A stretch of 6,655 nt of DNA, from the IMG/VR virus record IMGVR_UViG_2547132255_000001, positions 1 to 6,655 of that record; one strand, 5' to 3'. The DNA comes from a virus. Lineage: Monodnaviria > Loebvirae > Hofneiviricota > Faserviricetes > Tubulavirales > Inoviridae. Within the stretch, counting starts at the first letter, position 1. Each line of letters starts with the position of its first letter. The notes beneath the pieces were generated by a model. It was not told where the DNA came from, ran no database searches, and saw only the letters and a list, made by a program, of their open reading frames with translations. Positions 530 through 6,509 of the stretch are shown here, piece after piece. The position numbers and the translations under genes are program-made.

Positions 530-557
530 ATTTAACATAATATACATTATGCGCACC
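530..557 (-). other. dif: dif-type XerC/XerD recombination site forming the host-prophage junction
   Basis: Minus-strand reading of 530-557 is GGTGCGCATAA-TGTATA-TTATGTTAAAT, which matches the E. coli dif sequence as I recall it (11-bp XerC arm, 6-bp central region, 11-bp XerD arm). The XerD arm (530-540) faces the host gene and the XerC arm (547-557) faces the prophage. Confidence 0.85.
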
Positions 558-1335: not shown

Positions 1336-2580
1336 TCAGTTCAGGTTGTCCCGGAACAGTTCACCGCTCCTCGCGGCGCTGCGGGGCGTCGCCCTGCTCC
1401 GGTCAACCTTTCTGACCTGAAGCATCACCATAATATCAGTCTTGTTGCTTTCACTGGTACGGGAACCGAAGAAGCTCCAGCCGGAACTGGCCTTACTGTC
1501 TTTCTGTTCAGCAAGGCCACCAAGTAAAATAATATCACCATCTGCAAGGCTGACTTCGGTTGTTACATCACGCTTGATAAGGGTTGGCGAGTTATTGACG
1601 CCGGTTTCAGTGGTCACAAAGTTGGAAAGCTGCTGCTGAATCTTGAGATCCATTGTCCGACTTTTGATTGATGGCGTCACGTTAAACAAAACACCGCTGG
1701 AACGATATTCAACGGATTGCGTTGTCGTATTGTTATTCACCGTAACACTGCCCAGTACTGGCACATCAGAGCCGACTGAAAAAGACGCTGAGGCATTATT
1801 TTTTACCCGCAGTCGTGGCGCACTGACAACAGTAAAACGACTGTCGGTTTTCAGCAGATTGAAAATGGCATCAATGGAGCCGGTTCGAATATTGATAAAA
1901 TTATCCAGTCCGGCAGCACCAACTGAAATATTGAATTTATCAGACAGAATTTTAGCCGCTAAAAGAATGCCGGAGCCGTCAGACTGCGAGGTCTGAACCT
2001 CAAAAACATAACCAGAAACAACCACTTCATCACTCATCGTATCCAGCGAAGTGACCAGTGTTTTCAGGATGGCGATATCCTCTTTCGTACCATAATAAAC
2101 CAGAATATCACCGGTTCGATTGATGTAGTTGCTTGCCCCTGATGAACCTTTTAGCGAATCGTCAGAAATCACGGCTCCACTGTTATTGAAGGAGCCTGAA
2201 ACGTAGCCGCCAAGAATATCAGACAGGTAGGCAACAGAACGGTACTGAGGCGTATAAGTCCATGTATAACGTGGCTTAACCGGCTCTTTCGGCGTATAGG
2301 GCGCGATAAAATCAACACCCTTTTTCGTCCATATTCGAATGTTCATATTGCCAAGATAACGGGTTACAAATTCCCGTTCATCAATATCAGATGTTAACCT
2401 GAATGTAATCATTCGTTCATCATTAACAAGCTGTGGATCTAGCATATACGGGACTTTAAGCACCTCACTGTAAATAAGAGAAATAGCCTCCGGTAGCTTG
2501 ACTTTATTTAATTCAAGCTCTGACCCTGCGAAAGCACATGAAGAAAATAGTAGCGTTAATGCGAGTAAAATCTTTTTCAT
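1336..2580 (-). CDS. Filamentous-phage secretin (pIV-like, GspD/PulD secretin family), 414 aa
   Basis: N-terminal signal peptide MKKILLALTLLFSSCAFA|GS. C-terminal secretin-domain hallmarks (DGDIILLGGL ... WSFFGS ... DIMVMLQVRKV). Start ATG overlaps the stop of the upstream gI-like gene (TAATG at 2578-2582). Last gene of the module, as in Ff phages. Confidence 0.85.
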   Translation of the reverse strand: MKKILLALTLLFSSCAFAGSELELNKVKLPEAISLIYSEVLKVPYMLDPQLVNDERMITFRLTSDIDEREFVTRYLGNMNIRIWTKKGVDFIAPYTPKEPVKPRYTWTYTPQYRSVAYLSDILGGYVSGSFNNSGAVISDDSLKGSSGASNYINRTGDILVYYGTKEDIAILKTLVTSLDTMSDEVVVSGYVFEVQTSQSDGSGILLAAKILSDKFNISVGAAGLDNFINIRTGSIDAIFNLLKTDSRFTVVSAPRLRVKNNASASFSVGSDVPVLGSVTVNNNTTTQSVEYRSSGVLFNVTPSIKSRTMDLKIQQQLSNFVTTETGVNNSPTLIKRDVTTEVSLADGDIILLGGLAEQKDSKASSGWSFFGSRTSESNKTDIMVMLQVRKVDRSRATPRSAARSGELFRDNLN

Positions 2581-3590
2581 TATTTTTTCCCCGTATAAAG
2601 CGTCACACGCTCACCATCAATAATTCCGCTCATCAACATCCCTTTATAATTAAAACTGGATGCAGGAACGGCACGCAAAACACCGGCACCGTTAACAAGA
2701 ATCACAAACGCCCTGCCTTCACTGGTCATTCTCCCTGATATACGCCACTCGGTTGAAAGTGGCGGTTCAGCTGGTTCTGAGGGAGTAGCAGCGGAAGAAC
2801 GAAACATGGCCGCATCACGTACATCTGTTGTAGTCAAATCTGGCGAGGGATCGCTTCGGCCAAACGTGCTGAAAAATGAGTAAATCAGCCAGCCTGACCC
2901 GATAAACATCAATGGAAAAAGCACAAGAAAGAACCTGACTTTGCCAGAATTCCAGATGCTCTGGCGTTTATCTGTCTGCTTTTCATTACCGTTATTTCCT
3001 TCATAGCTTTTGTAAAGTTCAAAAATATCAGGGTTATATTTATTGCGATAACTGGTGACGAGGTTGCTTTTATAGATTTTGTGGCCTGAATATACGTCAA
3101 TGCAGTAATGATTATTCAGGCCCAACGCTTTCAGCTTGCGCATCCGGTAAGTTGTTTCTATTTTGTCTTTCAGAAAGCGAGCAATATTAGAAAGTGACTG
3201 ATTTACAATAACCAAATCACAGCTAATACCCGTTTCAGGGTGCGTAAAATGACGATGTTCAGCAATAAATGATTTCTTCTCAGCCGTCATATCCTTATCG
3301 CTACCGAAGATTCGCCATGCTTCATCAATAACAATTAAATCACCAAACTGGCAAAAGCTCCCTTCCCCACCTTTAAAAGGAAAGAAATCTGCTTTAAGCA
3401 CATCATCATTATCCACAACAATAATTTCTCCCGTTGCATCAGGATAACGTTCGGTGATTTTATCTTTTTGTAAACCATAAATGTTCGTCACAACTCTCCG
3501 GCCGCTGGTAAATGCCGGAATAATGACATTGCAAACGGCTTCATAACTTTTTCCTGAGCCGGGTATGCCAATATATGCAGAAATAGCCAT
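2580..3590 (-). CDS. Filamentous-phage assembly ATPase (pI / Zot family), 336 aa
   Basis: N-terminal Walker A GIPGSGKS, Walker B-like LIVIDEAW, and one internal hydrophobic transmembrane segment (FFLVLFPLMFIGSGWLIYSFF) as in pI. Positioned between gVI-like and secretin genes. Confidence 0.85.
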   Translation of the reverse strand: MAISAYIGIPGSGKSYEAVCNVIIPAFTSGRRVVTNIYGLQKDKITERYPDATGEIIVVDNDDVLKADFFPFKGGEGSFCQFGDLIVIDEAWRIFGSDKDMTAEKKSFIAEHRHFTHPETGISCDLVIVNQSLSNIARFLKDKIETTYRMRKLKALGLNNHYCIDVYSGHKIYKSNLVTSYRNKYNPDIFELYKSYEGNNGNEKQTDKRQSIWNSGKVRFFLVLFPLMFIGSGWLIYSFFSTFGRSDPSPDLTTTDVRDAAMFRSSAATPSEPAEPPLSTEWRISGRMTSEGRAFVILVNGAGVLRAVPASSFNYKGMLMSGIIDGERVTLYTGKK

Positions 3591-3593
3591 AAC

Positions 3594-3881
3594 TCACCCT
3601 ATAACAGGAATACGTCGAATAATAAAACGAGTAGCCATTGCGGAGATAATCATACTAATCCCCTGTGGTAATTTACTCAGGTTAATGAAGTACCAGAATC
3701 CGTCTGATAAATTGGCAAACAGCGATGAGAGATTGCTTGAATCTGGCAGTAACTCAACAAGGATTTCAACGAAGCCCTGGACTACAAAATACAGCGCAAA
3801 GAATACGACGAATTTAATAATCAATGACCGGAATACAAAACCTAACAAAGTATTTAATGCACTAATCAGAATCCCAAACAT
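3594..3881 (-). CDS. Minor coat protein pVI-like small hydrophobic protein, 95 aa
   Basis: Highly hydrophobic multi-segment protein of pVI-like size, located between gIII and gI. AGGAG Shine-Dalgarno 6 nt upstream of the ATG at 3881; stop is 3 nt before the gI start. Confidence 0.6.
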   Translation of the reverse strand: MFGILISALNTLLGFVFRSLIIKFVVFFALYFVVQGFVEILVELLPDSSNLSSLFANLSDGFWYFINLSKLPQGISMIISAMATRFIIRRIPVIG

Positions 3882-3893
3882 AGTTGCACTCCT

Positions 3894-5606
3894 TTAGGCA
3901 CTCAGAATAATACGGAGCGCAACAAATCCCCATATAATCAGAAATATGGTTTCTACGGCGCTTCTGTTCTGCTCAATTAACGGACAATGGGAGTCAATTC
4001 TGTACTGGTGATTAAACACGCTGAATTCAACAACGGGGCAGGATGCTGAACGAGAGCCGATGTTAAATTCGTTTGTAAAAGGCAACAAGTTAATAATTGG
4101 CGTTAAAATATCTCTTGCCGTTGGCGTTTCTTCAAGCTCAGGCTCTTTTACACCGGGATCTTCTCCCAAATCTATATTGCCATTATTTCCAGTGTCAGAT
4201 CCTGAGTTGTTATTAATGGTAATATCAATATTGACGTCAGCCCCTGCACTGTCAGATACAGGTGAAAGCATATCTAATAACGTTGGAGATAGCCTAAGTT
4301 CCGACATCGCAGAAGTTACTTCAGCCGGTGAAACCTCTTTAAACGGTAAGCCGTTATAATCGGCATTAACGGCAGCTTCAGACCACAGCTCGTTAATCAT
4401 GTCGGCAAGAAGTGCTGGCGATACACTAACACTATCAAGATACTCCAGATAATCAATCATGGACTCAATATTTCCGGCCTCCAGTACTTCCGTCATGGCT
4501 TTATATTTGGTATTGGTCCAGATAGTAAGCTCACTCTTTTCATCAATATCTTTTGTGGTGTAATCCTCTTTTTCAGGAACGGCGCAAATCGTCGAATATC
4601 CACCATTTGACTGATTAGTCGTTTTACAAGGCGTGTTGTGATACTGATATTGCTTTCCTGCTGTTAAATAAGCAACGCTGTAATACATGGGAAGCCCTGC
4701 TACATTTTCATACATGGGAATACCTGCGGGAAATGAAGATGCGGCCGGGTTGCTATACAAGTGTGTAATCTCAGGAATTTCATAAAATGAGGAAGGATAA
4801 GTAAACTTATAATTCTGTTCAGTAAAGGAGACATCTCCATTACTGTTGACAACTTTATTCGTCACAGTGCGTTCAAAATTCGTTAGTGTTTCAGTATAAG
4901 TACGCGAGTTATAGTCATTAAGATAATTTCTGGCAATTTCAGTTGGATTATCACCATAGTAATAAATTAGCTCTTTCGAATCCTGATAATAATAAAGTGC
5001 ATTATCTGGCGTGGAATATCCTGTTTCAACACCTACAACTGGAGAACCCGCATCCACATTATTACGACTAACATGAAGGATTACCGGACTTAATTCCTGT
5101 GGTTCAAAATTAACGGTTATCGTCTTACTTTCACCACTTTGACCACTGTACGTTACTTCATATAAATTATCGGAAATCTTTTTACCGTTAGTCATTACCA
5201 TTACCGAGCCGTCAGATGAACTCAAAGAAGACGGAACAAAAGATGATACAGCAGCAGCAATACCCGCCCACGTTGCAACACCGCTCATTTTGTATGATGA
5301 GGCAGCAGGCAAGTATTCGGCAGCATTAGCCGCAGCACGGCCAACAAAAACACGGGTTGCTGTAAGCTGTGATGCCGTATAAATCGCATCATTGGCAGCA
5401 AAGCGACGAACAAGCACCCGGCCAACGACTTTAGGAATAACAGCCCGCGCAGCCACTGCTGCAATTGCTGGTACAAATGAATATGAATATCGGGGAAAGG
5501 AAACCCAGAGAAAGGAAAAAATAAAGGAATAAACCGTCAGCCTCTTAGCCCAAGAATAACGACATAAGCTGAGACGATCCCCCATAAAAGGGAACCCAAT
5601 TTCCAT
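3894..5606 (-). CDS. Adsorption / minor coat protein pIII-like, 570 aa; start codon uncertain
   Basis: Largest ORF in the structural module, directly after gVIII and its terminator. Ser/Thr/Asn/Tyr-rich central region, Gly/Asn/Asp-rich linker (NNNSGSDTGNNGN) and C-terminal hydrophobic anchor (TIFLIIWGFVALRIILSA) as in pIII. GGAG 8 nt upstream of the ATG at 5606. N-terminal 110 aa are atypical. Confidence 0.6.
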   Translation of the reverse strand: MEIGFPFMGDRLSLCRYSWAKRLTVYSFIFSFLWVSFPRYSYSFVPAIAAVAARAVIPKVVGRVLVRRFAANDAIYTASQLTATRVFVGRAAANAAEYLPAASSYKMSGVATWAGIAAAVSSFVPSSLSSSDGSVMVMTNGKKISDNLYEVTYSGQSGESKTITVNFEPQELSPVILHVSRNNVDAGSPVVGVETGYSTPDNALYYYQDSKELIYYYGDNPTEIARNYLNDYNSRTYTETLTNFERTVTNKVVNSNGDVSFTEQNYKFTYPSSFYEIPEITHLYSNPAASSFPAGIPMYENVAGLPMYYSVAYLTAGKQYQYHNTPCKTTNQSNGGYSTICAVPEKEDYTTKDIDEKSELTIWTNTKYKAMTEVLEAGNIESMIDYLEYLDSVSVSPALLADMINELWSEAAVNADYNGLPFKEVSPAEVTSAMSELRLSPTLLDMLSPVSDSAGADVNIDITINNNSGSDTGNNGNIDLGEDPGVKEPELEETPTARDILTPIINLLPFTNEFNIGSRSASCPVVEFSVFNHQYRIDSHCPLIEQNRSAVETIFLIIWGFVALRIILSA

Positions 5607-5628
5607 AATTCAATCTCCATAATAACCT

Positions 5629-5657
5629 CAAGTAAAACGGGCGATATTGCATCGCCC
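5629..5657 (-). terminator. Rho-independent terminator between major coat gene and gIII (minus strand)
   Basis: Perfect 7-bp stem GGGCGAT (5639-5645) / ATCGCCC (5651-5657) with a 5-nt loop, followed on the minus strand by GUUUUACUU (5638-5629), 14 nt after the gVIII stop. Matches the position of the post-gVIII terminator in Ff phages. Confidence 0.6.
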
Positions 5658-5670
5658 ATGAATAATGAAT

Positions 5671-5862
5671 TTATGCGGATTTAACGGTACGCAATACCCA
5701 GCGAACGCCAGCGACACCGGCATAAAGTGTTACCAGTGAAGCAGCAACGGCCATAATCGCAACCAGAACTGTACTGAAATCAATGCTGTTCGTCAGCGGC
5801 GATAAATCAACACCACTTGATGCCGCTCCTTCTGCAGCGAAAGTCGCGCCAGAAACAGCCAT
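5671..5862 (-). CDS. Major coat protein pVIII-like, as called from ATG 5862; the probable true start is ATG 5903 in another frame, so the gene appears frameshifted
   Basis: Mature-protein architecture after an AxA site: acidic N-terminus AEGAASSGVD, hydrophobic core, basic C-terminus RWVLRTVKSA. The ATG at 5862 has no Shine-Dalgarno and leaves only a 9-aa leader. A GGAG-preceded ATG at 5903 encodes MFKK and is out of frame by one nucleotide at the A6 run 5892-5897. Confidence 0.7.
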   Translation of the reverse strand: MAVSGATFAAEGAASSGVDLSPLTNSIDFSTVLVAIMAVAASLVTLYAGVAGVRWVLRTVKSA

Positions 5863-5937
5863 TAATGCAGGTACAGCCAGAAAACTAACGATTTTTTAAA
5901 CATAACTCTATCTCCATTACATTTTAAAGGTTCGCAT

Positions 5938-6189
5938 TCAAGCAGTACGAACCATCTTTATTACCTGTCCCACACCTACAGAAAAAAGCCAGAGCAGCAG
6001 GACAGAGCCAAAACCTAATGTCCAGTAATTTCCCATTGCAGAATAATCAATTTGATGAAATGGTTCAGAACGTACCATTATTGCCTGACATTCTTTTGCA
6101 TTGTTCGCATTACATAAATAACCTTCAATACGGTAACCATTTTCAGGAATATGATTATCAAACTGAATATCGAAACCTGATGTATCCAT
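5938..6189 (-). CDS. Hypothetical small membrane protein in the position of the Ff pVII/pIX minor coat genes, 83 aa
   Basis: Lies between the gV-like and gVIII genes; start is 2 nt after the gV-like stop. C-terminal hydrophobic segment WTLGFGSVLLLWLFSVGVGQVI. Assignment is by synteny only. Confidence 0.4.
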   Translation of the reverse strand: MDTSGFDIQFDNHIPENGYRIEGYLCNANNAKECQAIMVRSEPFHQIDYSAMGNYWTLGFGSVLLLWLFSVGVGQVIKMVRTA

Positions 6190-6191
6190 AA

Positions 6192-6509
6192 TCAGCCTTT
6201 TATTTCAGTAATGCCGCCATCTGATGAAATGTTATAAGTTACTCCTTCCCTCCCCTCCATTGACCAGACGCGAACATATACAGGTATCTGGACTAACTTA
6301 CCGATAAAATTATTTGCCTGATTCATTACACCGGCATTAACAAGAGCCTGAGATACACGAATAATAATCTGGTCTTGCTTAGTGCCGCCAAAACCATCAG
6401 GAATCTCTAAGCCAACACCAATTTCATTATAGTATCCCTGACCATTGACCTTATTACGCTGGCGAGCACCAAGCATTTTACCTTTTACAAAAAGACCATA
6501 ATTAGACAT
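6192..6509 (-). CDS. Putative ssDNA-binding protein (gV analogue), 105 aa
   Basis: AAGGAG Shine-Dalgarno 6 nt upstream of the ATG at 6509. Size and position (after the replication gene, before structural genes) match gV. No recognisable motif, so the function is inferred from synteny. Confidence 0.4.
   Translation of the reverse strand: MSNYGLFVKGKMLGARQRNKVNGQGYYNEIGVGLEIPDGFGGTKQDQIIIRVSQALVNAGVMNQANNFIGKLVQIPVYVRVWSMEGREGVTYNISSDGGITEIKG

What the first reader, a model, noticed from the sequence alone, without database searches (positions are those of the whole stretch)
3894..5606. pIII-like adsorption protein has an atypical 110-aa N-terminal region with two hydrophobic segments
Instead of a short cleavable signal peptide, the ORF opens with an acidic start (MEIGFPFMGD), then a KR-flanked hydrophobic stretch (LTVYSFIFSFLWVSF), an Ala/Arg-rich segment, and a second signal-like segment after an internal Met at 5288-5286 (MSGVATWAGIAAAVSSFVPSSLSS). 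Codon choice across the region looks coding. The true start and topology are unclear, and the receptor-binding portion shows no obvious resemblance to Ff pIII, so host or receptor specificity may differ.
Basis: partly seen in the sequence, partly recalled or inferred. Interest (0 to 1): 0.45.

Follow-up and report, generated by a model that had tools for sequence, protein, structure and literature searches.

The report
Phage adsorption protein's long leader explained
The odd 110-residue front end of this filamentous-prophage adsorption protein (the CUS-1/YpfΦ pIII-like gene) is mostly ordinary: an out-of-frame overlap with a conserved, unnamed 27-codon gene, then a normal secretion signal, then a conserved N-terminal module of the mature protein.

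Summary
The ORF (5606..3894, minus strand, 570 aa) and its two hydrophobic segments are real. The reading "no cleavable signal peptide" is not supported.

- **Codons 1-22** overlap a conserved small hydrophobic gene (5620..5537, MEIELWKLGSLLWGIVSAYVVILGLRG) in another frame. Selection there acts on the small gene's frame (64 synonymous : 20 nonsynonymous codon differences), not the long ORF's (3:82).
- **The first hydrophobic segment** (residues 23-37, then PRYSYS|FVP) aligns with the N-terminal Sec signal peptide of all relatives. Positions -3 and -1 are small in 46 and 48 of 52 sequences, and Pro follows in 50 of 52.
- **The Ala/Arg-rich stretch and second hydrophobic segment** (residues 44-133) form a conserved N-terminal module of the mature protein, shared by much of a family of 785 representative proteins. 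AlphaFold2 models it confidently and does not model the second segment as a transmembrane helix.
- **Start codons.** The internal Met (5288) and the RefSeq/PGAP start (GTG 5456) are not conserved and lack Shine-Dalgarno sequences. ATG 5606 is the best start.
- **No resemblance to Ff pIII** receptor-binding domains was found.

The main by-product is the small gene, present in 94 of 96 loci and unnamed in any library searched. Interest is modest.

The parts
3894..5606 (-). pIII-like adsorption/minor-coat protein precursor, 570 aa including stop. This is the puvA gene of CUS-1, probably equivalent to YPO2277 of YpfΦ.
   Evidence: ORF list. Gene order coat - this ORF - DUF2523 - Zot - secretin. 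Matches phrog_3942 at E = 4.7e-253. 785 family representatives found. Literature on puvA and YPO2277.
5537..5620 (-). Conserved small hydrophobic gene, 27 aa plus stop (MEIELWKLGSLLWGIVSAYVVILGLRG), in the +1 frame relative to the long ORF. It is unannotated in RefSeq.
   Evidence: Conserved in all 7 divergent lineages and in 94 of 96 loci at the syntenic position, HMM E = 1e-7 to 1e-17. Synonymous:nonsynonymous 64:20 in its own frame. Shine-Dalgarno strength -6.3 kcal/mol. No CDS is annotated here.
5626..5629 (-). GAGG Shine-Dalgarno sequence of the small gene, 5 nt before ATG 5620.
   Evidence: Sequence; duplex energy -6.3 kcal/mol, within the top ~7% of positions; conserved in relatives.
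5615..5618 (-). GGAG Shine-Dalgarno sequence of the long ORF, 8 nt before ATG 5606. It lies inside codons 1-2 of the small gene.
   Evidence: Duplex energy -6.4 kcal/mol. The equivalent energy in four related lineages is -5.6 to -6.4.
5541..5606 (-). Codons 1-22 of the long ORF: an extended, sequence-unconstrained n-region of the signal peptide that overlaps the small gene.
   Evidence: Synonymous:nonsynonymous 3:82 in this frame. pLDDT below 50 for residues 1-15.
5496..5540 (-). Signal-peptide h-region, residues 23-37 (LTVYSFIFSFLWVSF).
   Evidence: Aligns with the N-terminal signal peptide of 52 relatives. Modelled as an isolated helix, residues 18-36. Mean Kyte-Doolittle hydropathy 1.76 over 15 residues.
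5478..5495 (-). Signal-peptide c-region PRYSYS, residues 38-43. Signal peptidase I cleavage is predicted after Ser43, giving a mature N-terminus FVPAIAAV...
   Evidence: Position -3 is A/S/C/T in 46 of 52 sequences, -1 is A/S/T in 48 of 52, and Pro follows at +2/+3 in 50 of 52. pLDDT below 50 for residues 38-45.
5208..5477 (-). Conserved N-terminal module of the mature protein, residues 44-133: three helices carrying the AAND motif (residues 70-73, 5399-5388), then the GxxTW element and a hydrophobic stretch.
   Evidence: P46, T84 and W113 are nearly invariant. 77% identity to the 66%-identical relatives, the best-conserved segment. pLDDT 81-96. 75 of 134 long family hits carry a strict A[AS]N[DE] motif.
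5217..5288 (-). It is part of the mature N-terminal module, not a start or a signal peptide.
   Evidence: M107 is Ile in 4 lineages. No Shine-Dalgarno sequence. 19-residue hydropathy of 1.36, below transmembrane grade. Modelled as a short strand plus short helices at pLDDT above 93. No conserved cleavage site follows it.
5454..5456 (-). GTG used by RefSeq/PGAP as the start (520-aa product). Probably a wrong start, because it removes the signal peptide.
   Evidence: Annotation. The codon is GTA, ATT, GTC or CCT in relatives. Shine-Dalgarno energy +0.9 kcal/mol.
4458..5207 (-). Beta-rich middle region, residues 134-383. It is the most variable part across the family and is the presumed primary receptor-binding domain.
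   Evidence: Model secondary structure and pLDDT mostly above 90. Lowest conservation and occupancy in the 52-sequence alignment. No Pfam, PDB or fold match.
3897..4457 (-). Conserved C-terminal domain, residues 384-570. It includes an Asn/Asp/Gly/Ser-rich linker (residues 447-495, 4268-4122) and the C-terminal membrane anchor (residues 548-569, 3965-3900).
   Evidence: C523, P524 and C541 are invariant in 52 sequences. Most of the 785 family hits match here. Anchor hydropathy 2.18 over 19 residues. Helix 548-569 in the model.
5637..5659 (-). Terminator-like hairpin with a T-run downstream of the major-coat gene, immediately upstream of the small gene.
   Evidence: An equivalent hairpin plus T-run is present in all divergent lineages.

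Best explanation
The 110-residue 'atypical N-terminus' is a composite of three ordinary parts.

(a) Translation of the pIII-like precursor most likely starts at ATG 5606. This lies 14 nt inside a conserved 27-codon membrane-protein gene (5620..5537) that is read in another frame. The first 22 residues are therefore dictated by that gene. They serve only as a long, unconstrained n-region ending in K21-R22.

(b) Residues 23-43 (h-region LTVYSFIFSFLWVSF, c-region PRYSYS) complete a Sec-type signal peptide. It inserts N-in/C-out and is predicted to be cut by signal peptidase I after Ser43.

(c) The mature protein begins at FVPAIAAV. It carries a positively charged, conserved N-terminal module (residues 44-133: three helices with the AAND motif, then a Trp-containing hydrophobic element), a variable beta-rich middle domain, a flexible Asn/Asp/Gly-rich linker, and a conserved C-terminal domain with a membrane anchor that holds it in the inner membrane until assembly.

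The overlap exists because this lineage has only about 20 codons between the small gene's stop and the cleavage site. That is too few for a complete signal peptide, so the start lies upstream inside the small gene. In relatives with 21-30 codons of room, the pIII-like ATG sits within a few nucleotides of the small gene's stop.

Shown here: conservation, frame-specific selection, the cleavage motif, Shine-Dalgarno strengths and model confidence. Inferred: actual initiation at 5606, actual cleavage after S43, periplasmic location of the module, and any role of the module. My working guess, by analogy with the layout of Ff pIII (N1, N2, C-terminal domain), is a co-receptor or entry function.
For: - Small gene: conserved in 7 lineages down to 37% pIII identity, in two deposited saliva inoviruses, and in 94 of 96 loci including Burkholderiales, Pseudomonas, Neisseriales and Methylobacter prophages.
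- Frame-specific selection: codons 1-22 give 3:82 (synonymous:nonsynonymous) in the long-ORF frame against 64:20 in the small-gene frame. From codon 37 on, the long-ORF frame gives 59:22 to 139:58 and the other frames almost no synonymous changes.
- Start codons: the PGAP GTG (codon 51), the GTG at codon 64 and ATG 107 are not conserved. Shine-Dalgarno energies are -6.4 (ATG 5606), -6.3 (ATG 5620), -3.6 (ATG 5585), +0.9 (GTG 5456) and +2.2 (ATG 5288) kcal/mol. ATG at codon 1 is present in all five close lineages, whereas codon 8 is ATG, TTG or GTG.
- Signal peptide: the first hydrophobic segment aligns with the N-terminal signal peptide of 52 relatives. Distant ones begin MKK + h-region + AQA|xP, and P0036 has YSYA|FLP against the window's YSYS|FVP. 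Position -3 is small in 46 of 52, -1 is small in 48 of 52, and Pro follows in 50 of 52. The N-side flank is more positive than the C-side flank in 33 of 48 sequences, equal in 13 and less positive in 2.
- Model: AlphaFold2 mean pLDDT 84.4. Residues 1-15 and 38-45 are below 50, residues 18-36 form an isolated helix, residues 46-128 score 81-96, and the second hydrophobic segment is not one long helix.
- Geometry: the overlapping arrangement occurs where the stop-to-cleavage distance is 41-65 nt (one case, L046, at 71 nt). The adjacent arrangement occurs mostly at 62-89 nt.
- Conservation pattern: N-module and C-domain conserved, middle variable.
Against: - No experimental data and no dedicated signal-peptide predictor were available. 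Cleavage after S43 is inferred from pattern and homology only.
- The start codons at codon 1 and codon 8 are NTG triplets created by conserved Trp codons of the small gene, so their conservation is weak evidence for use.
- A 43-residue signal peptide with acidic residues in its n-region and an Arg at -5 is unusual.
- The mature module is strongly basic (net +6 here; positive in 46 of 48 relatives). Under the positive-inside rule that would equally suit a cytoplasmic loop.
- In distant relatives the second hydrophobic element reaches transmembrane-grade hydropathy (19-residue Kyte-Doolittle mean at least 2.0 in 24 of 72). A membrane role for that element in the family is not excluded.
- Model coordinates could not be inspected, so packing of residues 44-133 against the beta domain is not verified.
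Confidence: 0.75

Rival explanations
1. Helical-hairpin leader. The two hydrophobic segments are both transmembrane. The N-tail is translocated, the Arg-rich stretch (residues 44-106) is a cytoplasmic loop, the second segment crosses in-to-out, and signal peptidase cuts after it (about SLS|S, residue 129/130). This would release a roughly 130-residue membrane 'pro-piece' and a mature pIII that starts at SDGS.
For: The loop is strongly basic (net +6 here; positive in 46 of 48 relatives), as the positive-inside rule predicts for cytoplasmic loops. Small residues (SSLSSS) follow the second segment in the window. The second element is transmembrane-grade in some distant relatives.
Against: - The N-side flank of segment 1 is more positive than its C-side flank (33 of 48; the reverse in 2 of 48), which favours an N-in, signal-peptide orientation.
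- Distant relatives start MKK + h-region + AQA, an unmistakable signal-peptide form.
- The site after segment 2 is not conserved. P0007 and P0009 have LNA|P, with Pro at +1, which is generally held to prevent signal peptidase I cleavage. P0016 has ELL-S.
- Segment 2 has a 19-residue hydropathy of only 1.36 here and 0.47 in P0026.
- The model shows a strand plus short helices at pLDDT above 93, not a transmembrane helix.
Confidence: 0.1
2. The gene starts downstream of the small gene, at the PGAP GTG 5456 (520 aa) or at the internal ATG 5288 with the second segment acting as the signal peptide. On this view the upstream frame is open only by chance.
For: RefSeq/PGAP annotates GTG 5456.
Against: Both codons are non-start codons in relatives: GTA, ATT, GTC or CCT at codon 51, and ATA, ATC or ATT at codon 107. 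Neither has a Shine-Dalgarno sequence, at +0.9 and +2.2 kcal/mol. The long-ORF frame shows a synonymous-dominated substitution pattern from about codon 24 onward. A product starting at codon 51 would lack any signal peptide, so an exported virion protein could not be made.
Confidence: 0.04
3. Programmed -1 ribosomal frameshift. Ribosomes start at ATG 5620 on the small gene and slip into the pIII frame before its stop, so that pIII carries the small protein's N-terminal part as its leader.
For: The small-gene start has a good Shine-Dalgarno sequence, and the pIII frame is -1 relative to it.
Against: The window has no canonical X_XXY_YYZ heptamer, and none is conserved at a homologous position in 9 lineages. 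In many betaproteobacterial relatives the pIII-like gene has its own ATG just after the small gene's stop, so fusion is not a family feature. An in-frame ATG with its own Shine-Dalgarno sequence is available at 5606.
Confidence: 0.03
4. The start is ATG 5585 (codon 8) rather than 5606, giving a 36-residue signal peptide (MGDRLSLCRYSWAKR + h-region + c-region). Everything else is as in the best explanation.
For: This gives a more typical n-region of 15 residues with net charge +3. Codon 8 is a potential start (ATG, TTG or GTG) in all 7 lineages.
Against: Its Shine-Dalgarno sequence is weak, at -3.6 kcal/mol (-3.3 to -4.1 in relatives), against -5.6 to -6.4 for codon 1. In two lineages it is TTG or GTG while codon 1 stays ATG.
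Confidence: 0.2

Closest known systems
CUS-1 puvA (E. coli O18:K1:H7), with YpfΦ YPO2277 (Yersinia pestis) as its probable equivalent
   Same: This appears to be the same gene. The window matches the CUS-1-type dif-integrated prophage found in 109 of 5,426 complete E. coli genomes at 99% identity or better. The 40-aa extended form of the small ORF is recorded verbatim in Y. pestis genomes. [quoted passage not shown] It reports that disrupting YPO2277, a morphogenesis-module gene, abolishes particle production. It also states that no receptor is known.
   Different: In what I could read, nothing describes the signal peptide, the conserved N-terminal module or the overlapping small gene. The equation YPO2277 = this ORF rests on gene order in the review, not on a sequence comparison made here. 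The primary 2002 CUS-1 paper is not held.
Ff (M13/fd/f1) pIII (g3p)
   Same: Same genomic position (after the major-coat gene and before pVI and pI). Same logic of parts: Sec signal peptide, N-terminal domains, flexible low-complexity linker, C-terminal domain with a hydrophobic anchor. Same conservation pattern: conserved extreme N-terminal part, variable middle, conserved C-terminal domain.
   Different: No detectable sequence or fold similarity to the N1, N2 or C-terminal domains. The signal peptide is about 43 residues rather than 18, and its start overlaps an upstream gene. The N-terminal module is helical and basic. The Ff features cited here are from established knowledge and were not re-derived.
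Ff pVII and pIX (32-33 aa hydrophobic minor coat proteins)
   Same: The small gene's product is 24-31 aa and is essentially one hydrophobic helix with a polar or basic C-terminus. It is encoded in the structural module and is tightly packed or overlapped with its neighbours, as the small Ff genes are.
   Different: It lies after the major-coat gene rather than before it. No detectable homology was found (hhalign probability 2-5% against M13 pIX and pVII sequences written from memory). Virion location is unknown.
Extended signal peptide region (ESPR) of autotransporters and two-partner-secretion proteins
   Same: A Sec signal peptide with an unusually long N-terminal extension ahead of a normal n/h/c core.
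   Different: The ESPR is a conserved sequence motif thought to have its own function. Here the extension is unconstrained (3 synonymous: 82 nonsynonymous) and is a by-product of gene overlap. The comparison is from general knowledge and was not tested.

Membership tests
Inovirus pIII/g3p-type adsorption (minor coat) protein | Gene lies between the major-coat gene and the pVI-like and pI (Zot) genes of the structural/assembly module | tested here: met
   Order on the minus strand: G5P-like, 83-aa membrane protein, Phage_Coat_B-like, this ORF, DUF2523, Zot, secretin. The same order is seen in relatives.
Inovirus pIII/g3p-type adsorption (minor coat) protein | N-terminal Sec signal peptide | tested here: met
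   n/h/c organisation with a family-wide small-x-small|x-Pro motif and N-in flank charges. Actual cleavage was not testable.
Inovirus pIII/g3p-type adsorption (minor coat) protein | C-terminal hydrophobic membrane anchor and conserved C-terminal domain for virion incorporation | tested here: met
   Residues 550-568 have a mean hydropathy of 2.18 and residues 548-569 form a helix. The C-domain is the most conserved region across 785 hits. Incorporation itself was not testable.
Inovirus pIII/g3p-type adsorption (minor coat) protein | Flexible low-complexity linker between the receptor-binding part and the C-terminal domain | tested here: met
   Residues 447-495 are Asn/Asp/Gly/Ser-rich and have no regular secondary structure. 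pLDDT is below 50 at residues 467-478.
Inovirus pIII/g3p-type adsorption (minor coat) protein | Sequence or fold homology to Ff g3p domains (N1, N2, C-terminal) | tested here: not met
Inovirus pIII/g3p-type adsorption (minor coat) protein | Needed for particle production or infectivity | not testable with these tools
   Literature only: disrupting YPO2277 abolishes particles, and puvA is described as a receptor-binding virion protein.
Sec / signal peptidase I signal peptide (first hydrophobic segment) | Positively charged n-region, hydrophobic h-region of 10-15 or more residues, helix breaker, small residues at -3 and -1 | tested here: met
   K21-R22; LTVYSFIFSFLWVSF; P38; S41 and S43. The corresponding family columns are conserved.
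Twin-arginine (Tat) signal (R67-R68) | S/T-R-R-x-F-L-K motif directly followed by a hydrophobic h-region and an AxA site, at the N-terminus of the precursor | tested here: not met
   R67-R68 lies after an upstream Sec-type signal peptide and is followed by FAANDAIYTASQ, which is not hydrophobic. In distant relatives the equivalent is RGFAANDPR inside the mature protein.
Ff pVII/pIX-like small minor coat protein (small gene 5620..5537) | About 30-aa single-helix hydrophobic protein encoded in the structural module | tested here: met
   24-31 aa, with W6, G14 and G24 invariant. Syntenic in 94 of 96 loci.
Ff pVII/pIX-like small minor coat protein (small gene 5620..5537) | Sequence homology to pVII or pIX, or presence at the virion tip | tested here: inconclusive
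   hhalign probability 2-5%. No Pfam or PHROG family. Peptides this short carry little signal. Virion location is not testable here.

The most novel reading that the evidence does not exclude
The 24-31 aa gene wedged against, or overlapping, the pIII-like start is a previously unrecognised, near-universal structural or assembly protein of a large inovirus clade infecting beta- and gammaproteobacteria. Its translation is physically interlocked with that of the adsorption protein, through competing or coupled initiation sites, which would set their stoichiometry. Together with this, the basic AAND helices plus the hydrophobic Trp element at the mature N-terminus would form a membrane-active entry device that replaces the TolA-binding N1 domain of Ff phages.
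Probability: 0.25. Interest if true: 0.55.

Novelty: new variant of a known kind. Interest (0 to 1): 0.33.

Why it matters
- **Annotation.** The RefSeq/PGAP model of this gene (520 aa from GTG 5456) probably lacks its signal peptide. The conserved small gene is missing from RefSeq and from the deposited inovirus genomes I examined.
- **Engineering.** Anyone displaying or swapping receptor-binding domains from this family, or filtering candidates with a signal-peptide predictor, needs the correct precursor start and the predicted mature N-terminus (F44).
- **Biology.** CUS-1 and YpfΦ are linked to the fitness of extraintestinal E. coli and of Yersinia pestis, and their receptor is unknown. Separating a conserved N-terminal module from a variable middle domain shows where to look for co-receptor and primary-receptor binding.
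- **The small gene.** It is a cheap, testable candidate for a missing minor virion or assembly protein in a large, poorly studied inovirus clade.

None of this overturns current understanding of filamentous phages.

Tried and rejected
- **Internal-Met start and PGAP GTG start.** Rejected on codon conservation and Shine-Dalgarno energies.
- **Tat signal at R67-R68.** Rejected: it sits after a Sec signal peptide and no h-region follows it.
- **-1 frameshift fusion.** No conserved slippery site.
- **Curated families.** Pfam and NCBIfam scans of 52 family members returned no real family.
- **AlphaFold2 on a distant 'RGFAANDPR' member.** With only 12 sequences the model reached pLDDT 51 and was uninformative about whether the second hydrophobic element is transmembrane there.
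- **Locus retrieval with broad alignments.** Solved by using a subfamily alignment.
- **Searches for the small protein.** The large protein database refuses queries under 40 aa. tblastn of a 27-aa version against deposited phages found nothing. Homology to M13 pVII and pIX was undetectable.
- **Literature.** The primary 2002 CUS-1 paper (PMC135385) is not held. A 'puvA' search mostly returned dermatology papers.
- **megablast of the window against deposited phages.** No match, because these elements are deposited as prophages.
Full report
**What the window is.** The minus strand carries the structural and assembly module of a filamentous (inovirus) prophage. In order it encodes:
- a G5P-like ssDNA-binding protein (6509..6192);
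- an 83-aa membrane protein (6189..5938);
- a Phage_Coat_B-like major coat gene;
- the long ORF under study (5606..3894);
- a DUF2523/pVI-like gene (3881..3594);
- a Zot/pI gene (3590..2580);
- a secretin/pIV gene (2580..1336).

The stretch matches 109 of 5,426 complete E. coli genomes at 99% identity or better. Some carry it as tandem copies, and one record is a 9.5-kb circular 'plasmid'. A perfect E. coli dif site lies at 530-557. An ORF identical to window 5659..5537 is recorded in Yersinia pestis genomes. This is the CUS-1/YpfΦ type of dif-integrating prophage. In CUS-1 the adsorption gene is called puvA. In YpfΦ, disrupting the morphogenesis gene YPO2277 abolishes particle production, and no receptor has been identified (PMC4266046).

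**Checking the observation.** All full-length homologues, at 88% down to 37% identity, keep this N-terminal region in frame.

**An overlapping gene explains the 'acidic start'.** I translated the region in three frames in seven lineages. A small ORF in the +1 frame, with its own GAGG Shine-Dalgarno sequence just downstream of the post-coat-gene hairpin, is conserved in all of them. In the window it is 5620..5537 (MEIELWKLGSLLWGIVSAYVVILGLRG). In the 37%-identity lineages it reads MWDIVVFLWGLLCAWAVIQGLSGH.

Codon differences among five close lineages were classified as synonymous or nonsynonymous (S:N) in each frame:
- Long-ORF codons 1-22: 3:82 in the long-ORF frame, against 64:20 in the small-ORF frame.
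- Codons 24-36: 25:29 in the long-ORF frame, with substitutions enriched at third positions.
- Codon 37 onward: 59:22, 91:38, 139:58 and 100:65 in successive segments of the long-ORF frame, with almost no synonymous differences in the other two frames.

The 'acidic start' is therefore an out-of-frame reading of another gene. The pIII frame comes under selection immediately after that gene's stop.

The small gene is remarkably widespread. It is present in two deposited saliva inoviruses, PP511687 and OR148978, that share only the N-terminal leader region and the C-terminal third of pIII with the window. It is also present in prophages of Burkholderiales, Pseudomonas, Neisseriales and Methylobacter (for example MTNSQLWYLFVFAWGIVCAWAVIKGLE). 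An HMM finds it at the syntenic position in 94 of 96 loci. One of the two exceptions lacks the upstream DNA. W6, G14 and G24 are invariant.

The small gene is not annotated in RefSeq or in the two GenBank inovirus records. It matches no Pfam or PHROG family. Where gene callers have picked it up, it appears only as 'hypothetical protein'.

**Where the pIII-like gene starts.** Three downstream candidates fail:
- The RefSeq/PGAP start (GTG 5456, codon 51) is GTA, ATT, GTC or CCT in relatives.
- The GTG at codon 64 is GTT or GTC.
- ATG 107 is ATA, ATC or ATT.

None of the three has a Shine-Dalgarno sequence, at +0.9, -1.5 and +2.2 kcal/mol. Because the frame is selected from about codon 24, initiation must occur inside the small gene. 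ATG 5606 has a GGAG 8 nt upstream (-6.4 kcal/mol, within the top ~7% of positions) and is ATG in all five close lineages. ATG 5585 has a weak site (-3.6) and is TTG or GTG in two lineages. Both NTG triplets are generated by Trp codons of the small gene, so their conservation alone proves little. No conserved slippery heptamer supports a frameshift fusion.

**The first hydrophobic segment is a signal peptide.** A profile search of 1.84 billion representative proteins found 785 relatives. In a 52-sequence alignment, window residues 23-43 align with the N-terminal signal peptide of every relative.
- Distant members simply begin MKK/MRK + h-region + AQA|xP.
- Closer ones read AYA|NP, AYS|NP or YSYA|FLP, against the window's YSYS|FVP.
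- Position -3 is A/S/C/T in 46 of 52 sequences, -1 is A/S/T in 48 of 52, and Pro follows at +2/+3 in 50 of 52.
- The N-side flank is more positive than the C-side flank in 33 of 48 sequences and less positive in only 2, the orientation expected of a signal peptide.
- AlphaFold2 (mean pLDDT 84.4) models residues 18-36 as an isolated helix, with disorder at residues 1-15 and 38-45.

Many relatives start at M(R/C)(L/M)G..S.., about 33-36 nt inside the small gene. The window lineage lost that ATG because its small protein has Ala-Tyr (GCT TAT) where others have Ala-Trp (GCA TGG). It therefore uses a start further upstream.

The geometry is consistent across loci. Where at least about 21 codons separate the small gene's stop from the cleavage site, the pIII-like ATG lies -3 to +19 nt from that stop. 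Where only 14-20 codons are available, as in the window (59 nt), the start lies 30-69 nt inside the small gene (one locus, L046, at 71 nt, does not fit).

**The Ala/Arg-rich stretch and the second hydrophobic segment.** Residues 44-133 form a conserved module at the N-terminus of the predicted mature protein. Its elements are P46, helices at 46-52, 56-71 and 78-97 carrying an AAND motif (RGFAANDPR, invariant in the betaproteobacterial subfamily), T84, and a GxxTW element (W113) followed by a hydrophobic stretch.

It is the best-conserved segment against the 66%-identity relatives (77% identity). Across the family it is more conserved than the beta-rich middle region and less conserved than the C-terminal domain.

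The second segment has a 19-residue hydropathy of 1.36, below transmembrane grade. The model renders it as a short strand plus short helices at pLDDT above 93. No usable cleavage site follows it in several relatives: LNA|P has Pro at +1, and P0016 has ELL-S.

The module is basic in 46 of 48 relatives. In some distant relatives the hydrophobic element reaches transmembrane grade. A membrane-interacting role in the family therefore remains possible. A model of a distant member was too poor to decide the point.

**Rest of the protein.** Residues 134-383 are beta-rich and are the most variable part of the family. Residues 384-446 are helical and conserved. Residues 447-495 form an Asn/Asp/Gly/Ser-rich linker. 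Residues 496-570 form a conserved domain with invariant C523, P524 and C541 and a C-terminal anchor.

**How it most likely works.**

*Shown here:*
- the gene overlap and the frame-specific selection;
- the family-wide signal-peptide motif;
- the lack of conservation of the alternative starts;
- the conserved module.

*Inferred:*
- Ribosomes initiate independently at 5620 (small protein) and at 5606 (pIII precursor).
- The precursor is exported by the Sec pathway and cut after Ser43.
- The mature protein stays anchored by its C-terminus until it is incorporated into the virion.
- By analogy with the layout of Ff pIII, the conserved N-module serves a host-conserved step (co-receptor binding or entry) and the variable middle domain binds the primary receptor.
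- The small protein is a structural or assembly component comparable to pVII/pIX.

**Verdict.** The finding is real but largely ordinary once relatives are compared. Its value lies in correcting the gene start and in exposing a conserved, unnamed small gene and an uncurated N-terminal module.

Noticed in passing
window 5537-5620 (minus strand): A conserved 27-codon hydrophobic gene overlaps the start of the pIII-like ORF in another frame. It is found in 94 of 96 related loci across beta- and gammaproteobacterial inovirus prophages. It is absent from the RefSeq and GenBank annotations I saw and from Pfam and PHROGs.
   Followed up: yes
window 5892-5903 (minus strand): The major-coat (pVIII-like) gene has ATG TTT followed by an A6 run in this copy. 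That shifts the frame (MFKKSLVFWLYLH*) and cuts off its signal peptide. All 17 close copies among the fetched loci have A7 and an intact 77-aa precoat. Only E. coli NU14 (NZ_CP019777.1), out of 99 matching genomes, is 100% identical over 5840-5960. This is either a homopolymer sequencing error or a defective or phase-variable copy.
   Followed up: partly
window 530-557 (minus strand): An exact 28-bp E. coli dif site (GGTGCGCATAATGTATATTATGTTAAAT) flanks the prophage, as expected for XerCD-dependent integration of CUS-1/YpfΦ.
   Followed up: partly
window 5454-5456; L001 6245-7807: RefSeq/PGAP starts the pIII-like gene at a non-conserved GTG with no Shine-Dalgarno sequence. The resulting 520-aa product (WP_024175356) would lack the signal peptide. 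This is probably a systematic start-site error for the family.
   Followed up: yes
L001 (NZ_CP054965.1) and L002 (NZ_CP128883.1): In one E. coli chromosome the prophage is present as a tandem array with a truncated first copy of the pIII-like gene. In another strain a 9,565-bp circular 'untypable plasmid' is the whole phage genome, probably the replicative form.
   Followed up: no
L061, L064, L067, L075, L078, L092, L095 (about 2800-2980): In Undibacterium-type prophages the conserved small gene ends 250-450 nt before the pIII-like gene. A second hydrophobic ORF of 45-60 aa (for example MIGYDKWWEPLVVAAVFPIY...) fills the gap.
   Followed up: no
window 5388-5399 and 5310-5339; L014 1885-2300: The AAND motif recurs. 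The window has RRFAANDAIY and a degenerate GRAAANAAEY about 20 residues later. Saliva inoviruses carry two or three copies (AAANDAAFLAANEAA...VAANDATF). This suggests a short tandem-repeat origin for the helical module.
   Followed up: no
L007-L009 (after the pIII-like gene, e.g. L007 3505-4411): In the P0009 lineage the pIII-like gene is followed directly by a truncated 230-aa secretin. No pVI-like or Zot gene is called there, which suggests a deletion derivative.
   Followed up: no
window 5637-5659 (minus strand): A terminator-like hairpin plus T-run follows the coat gene and contains the ATG (5659) of the 40-aa 'hypothetical protein' form of the small ORF. That ATG has no Shine-Dalgarno sequence (+1.6 kcal/mol), so the 27-aa form is the more plausible product.
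   Followed up: partly
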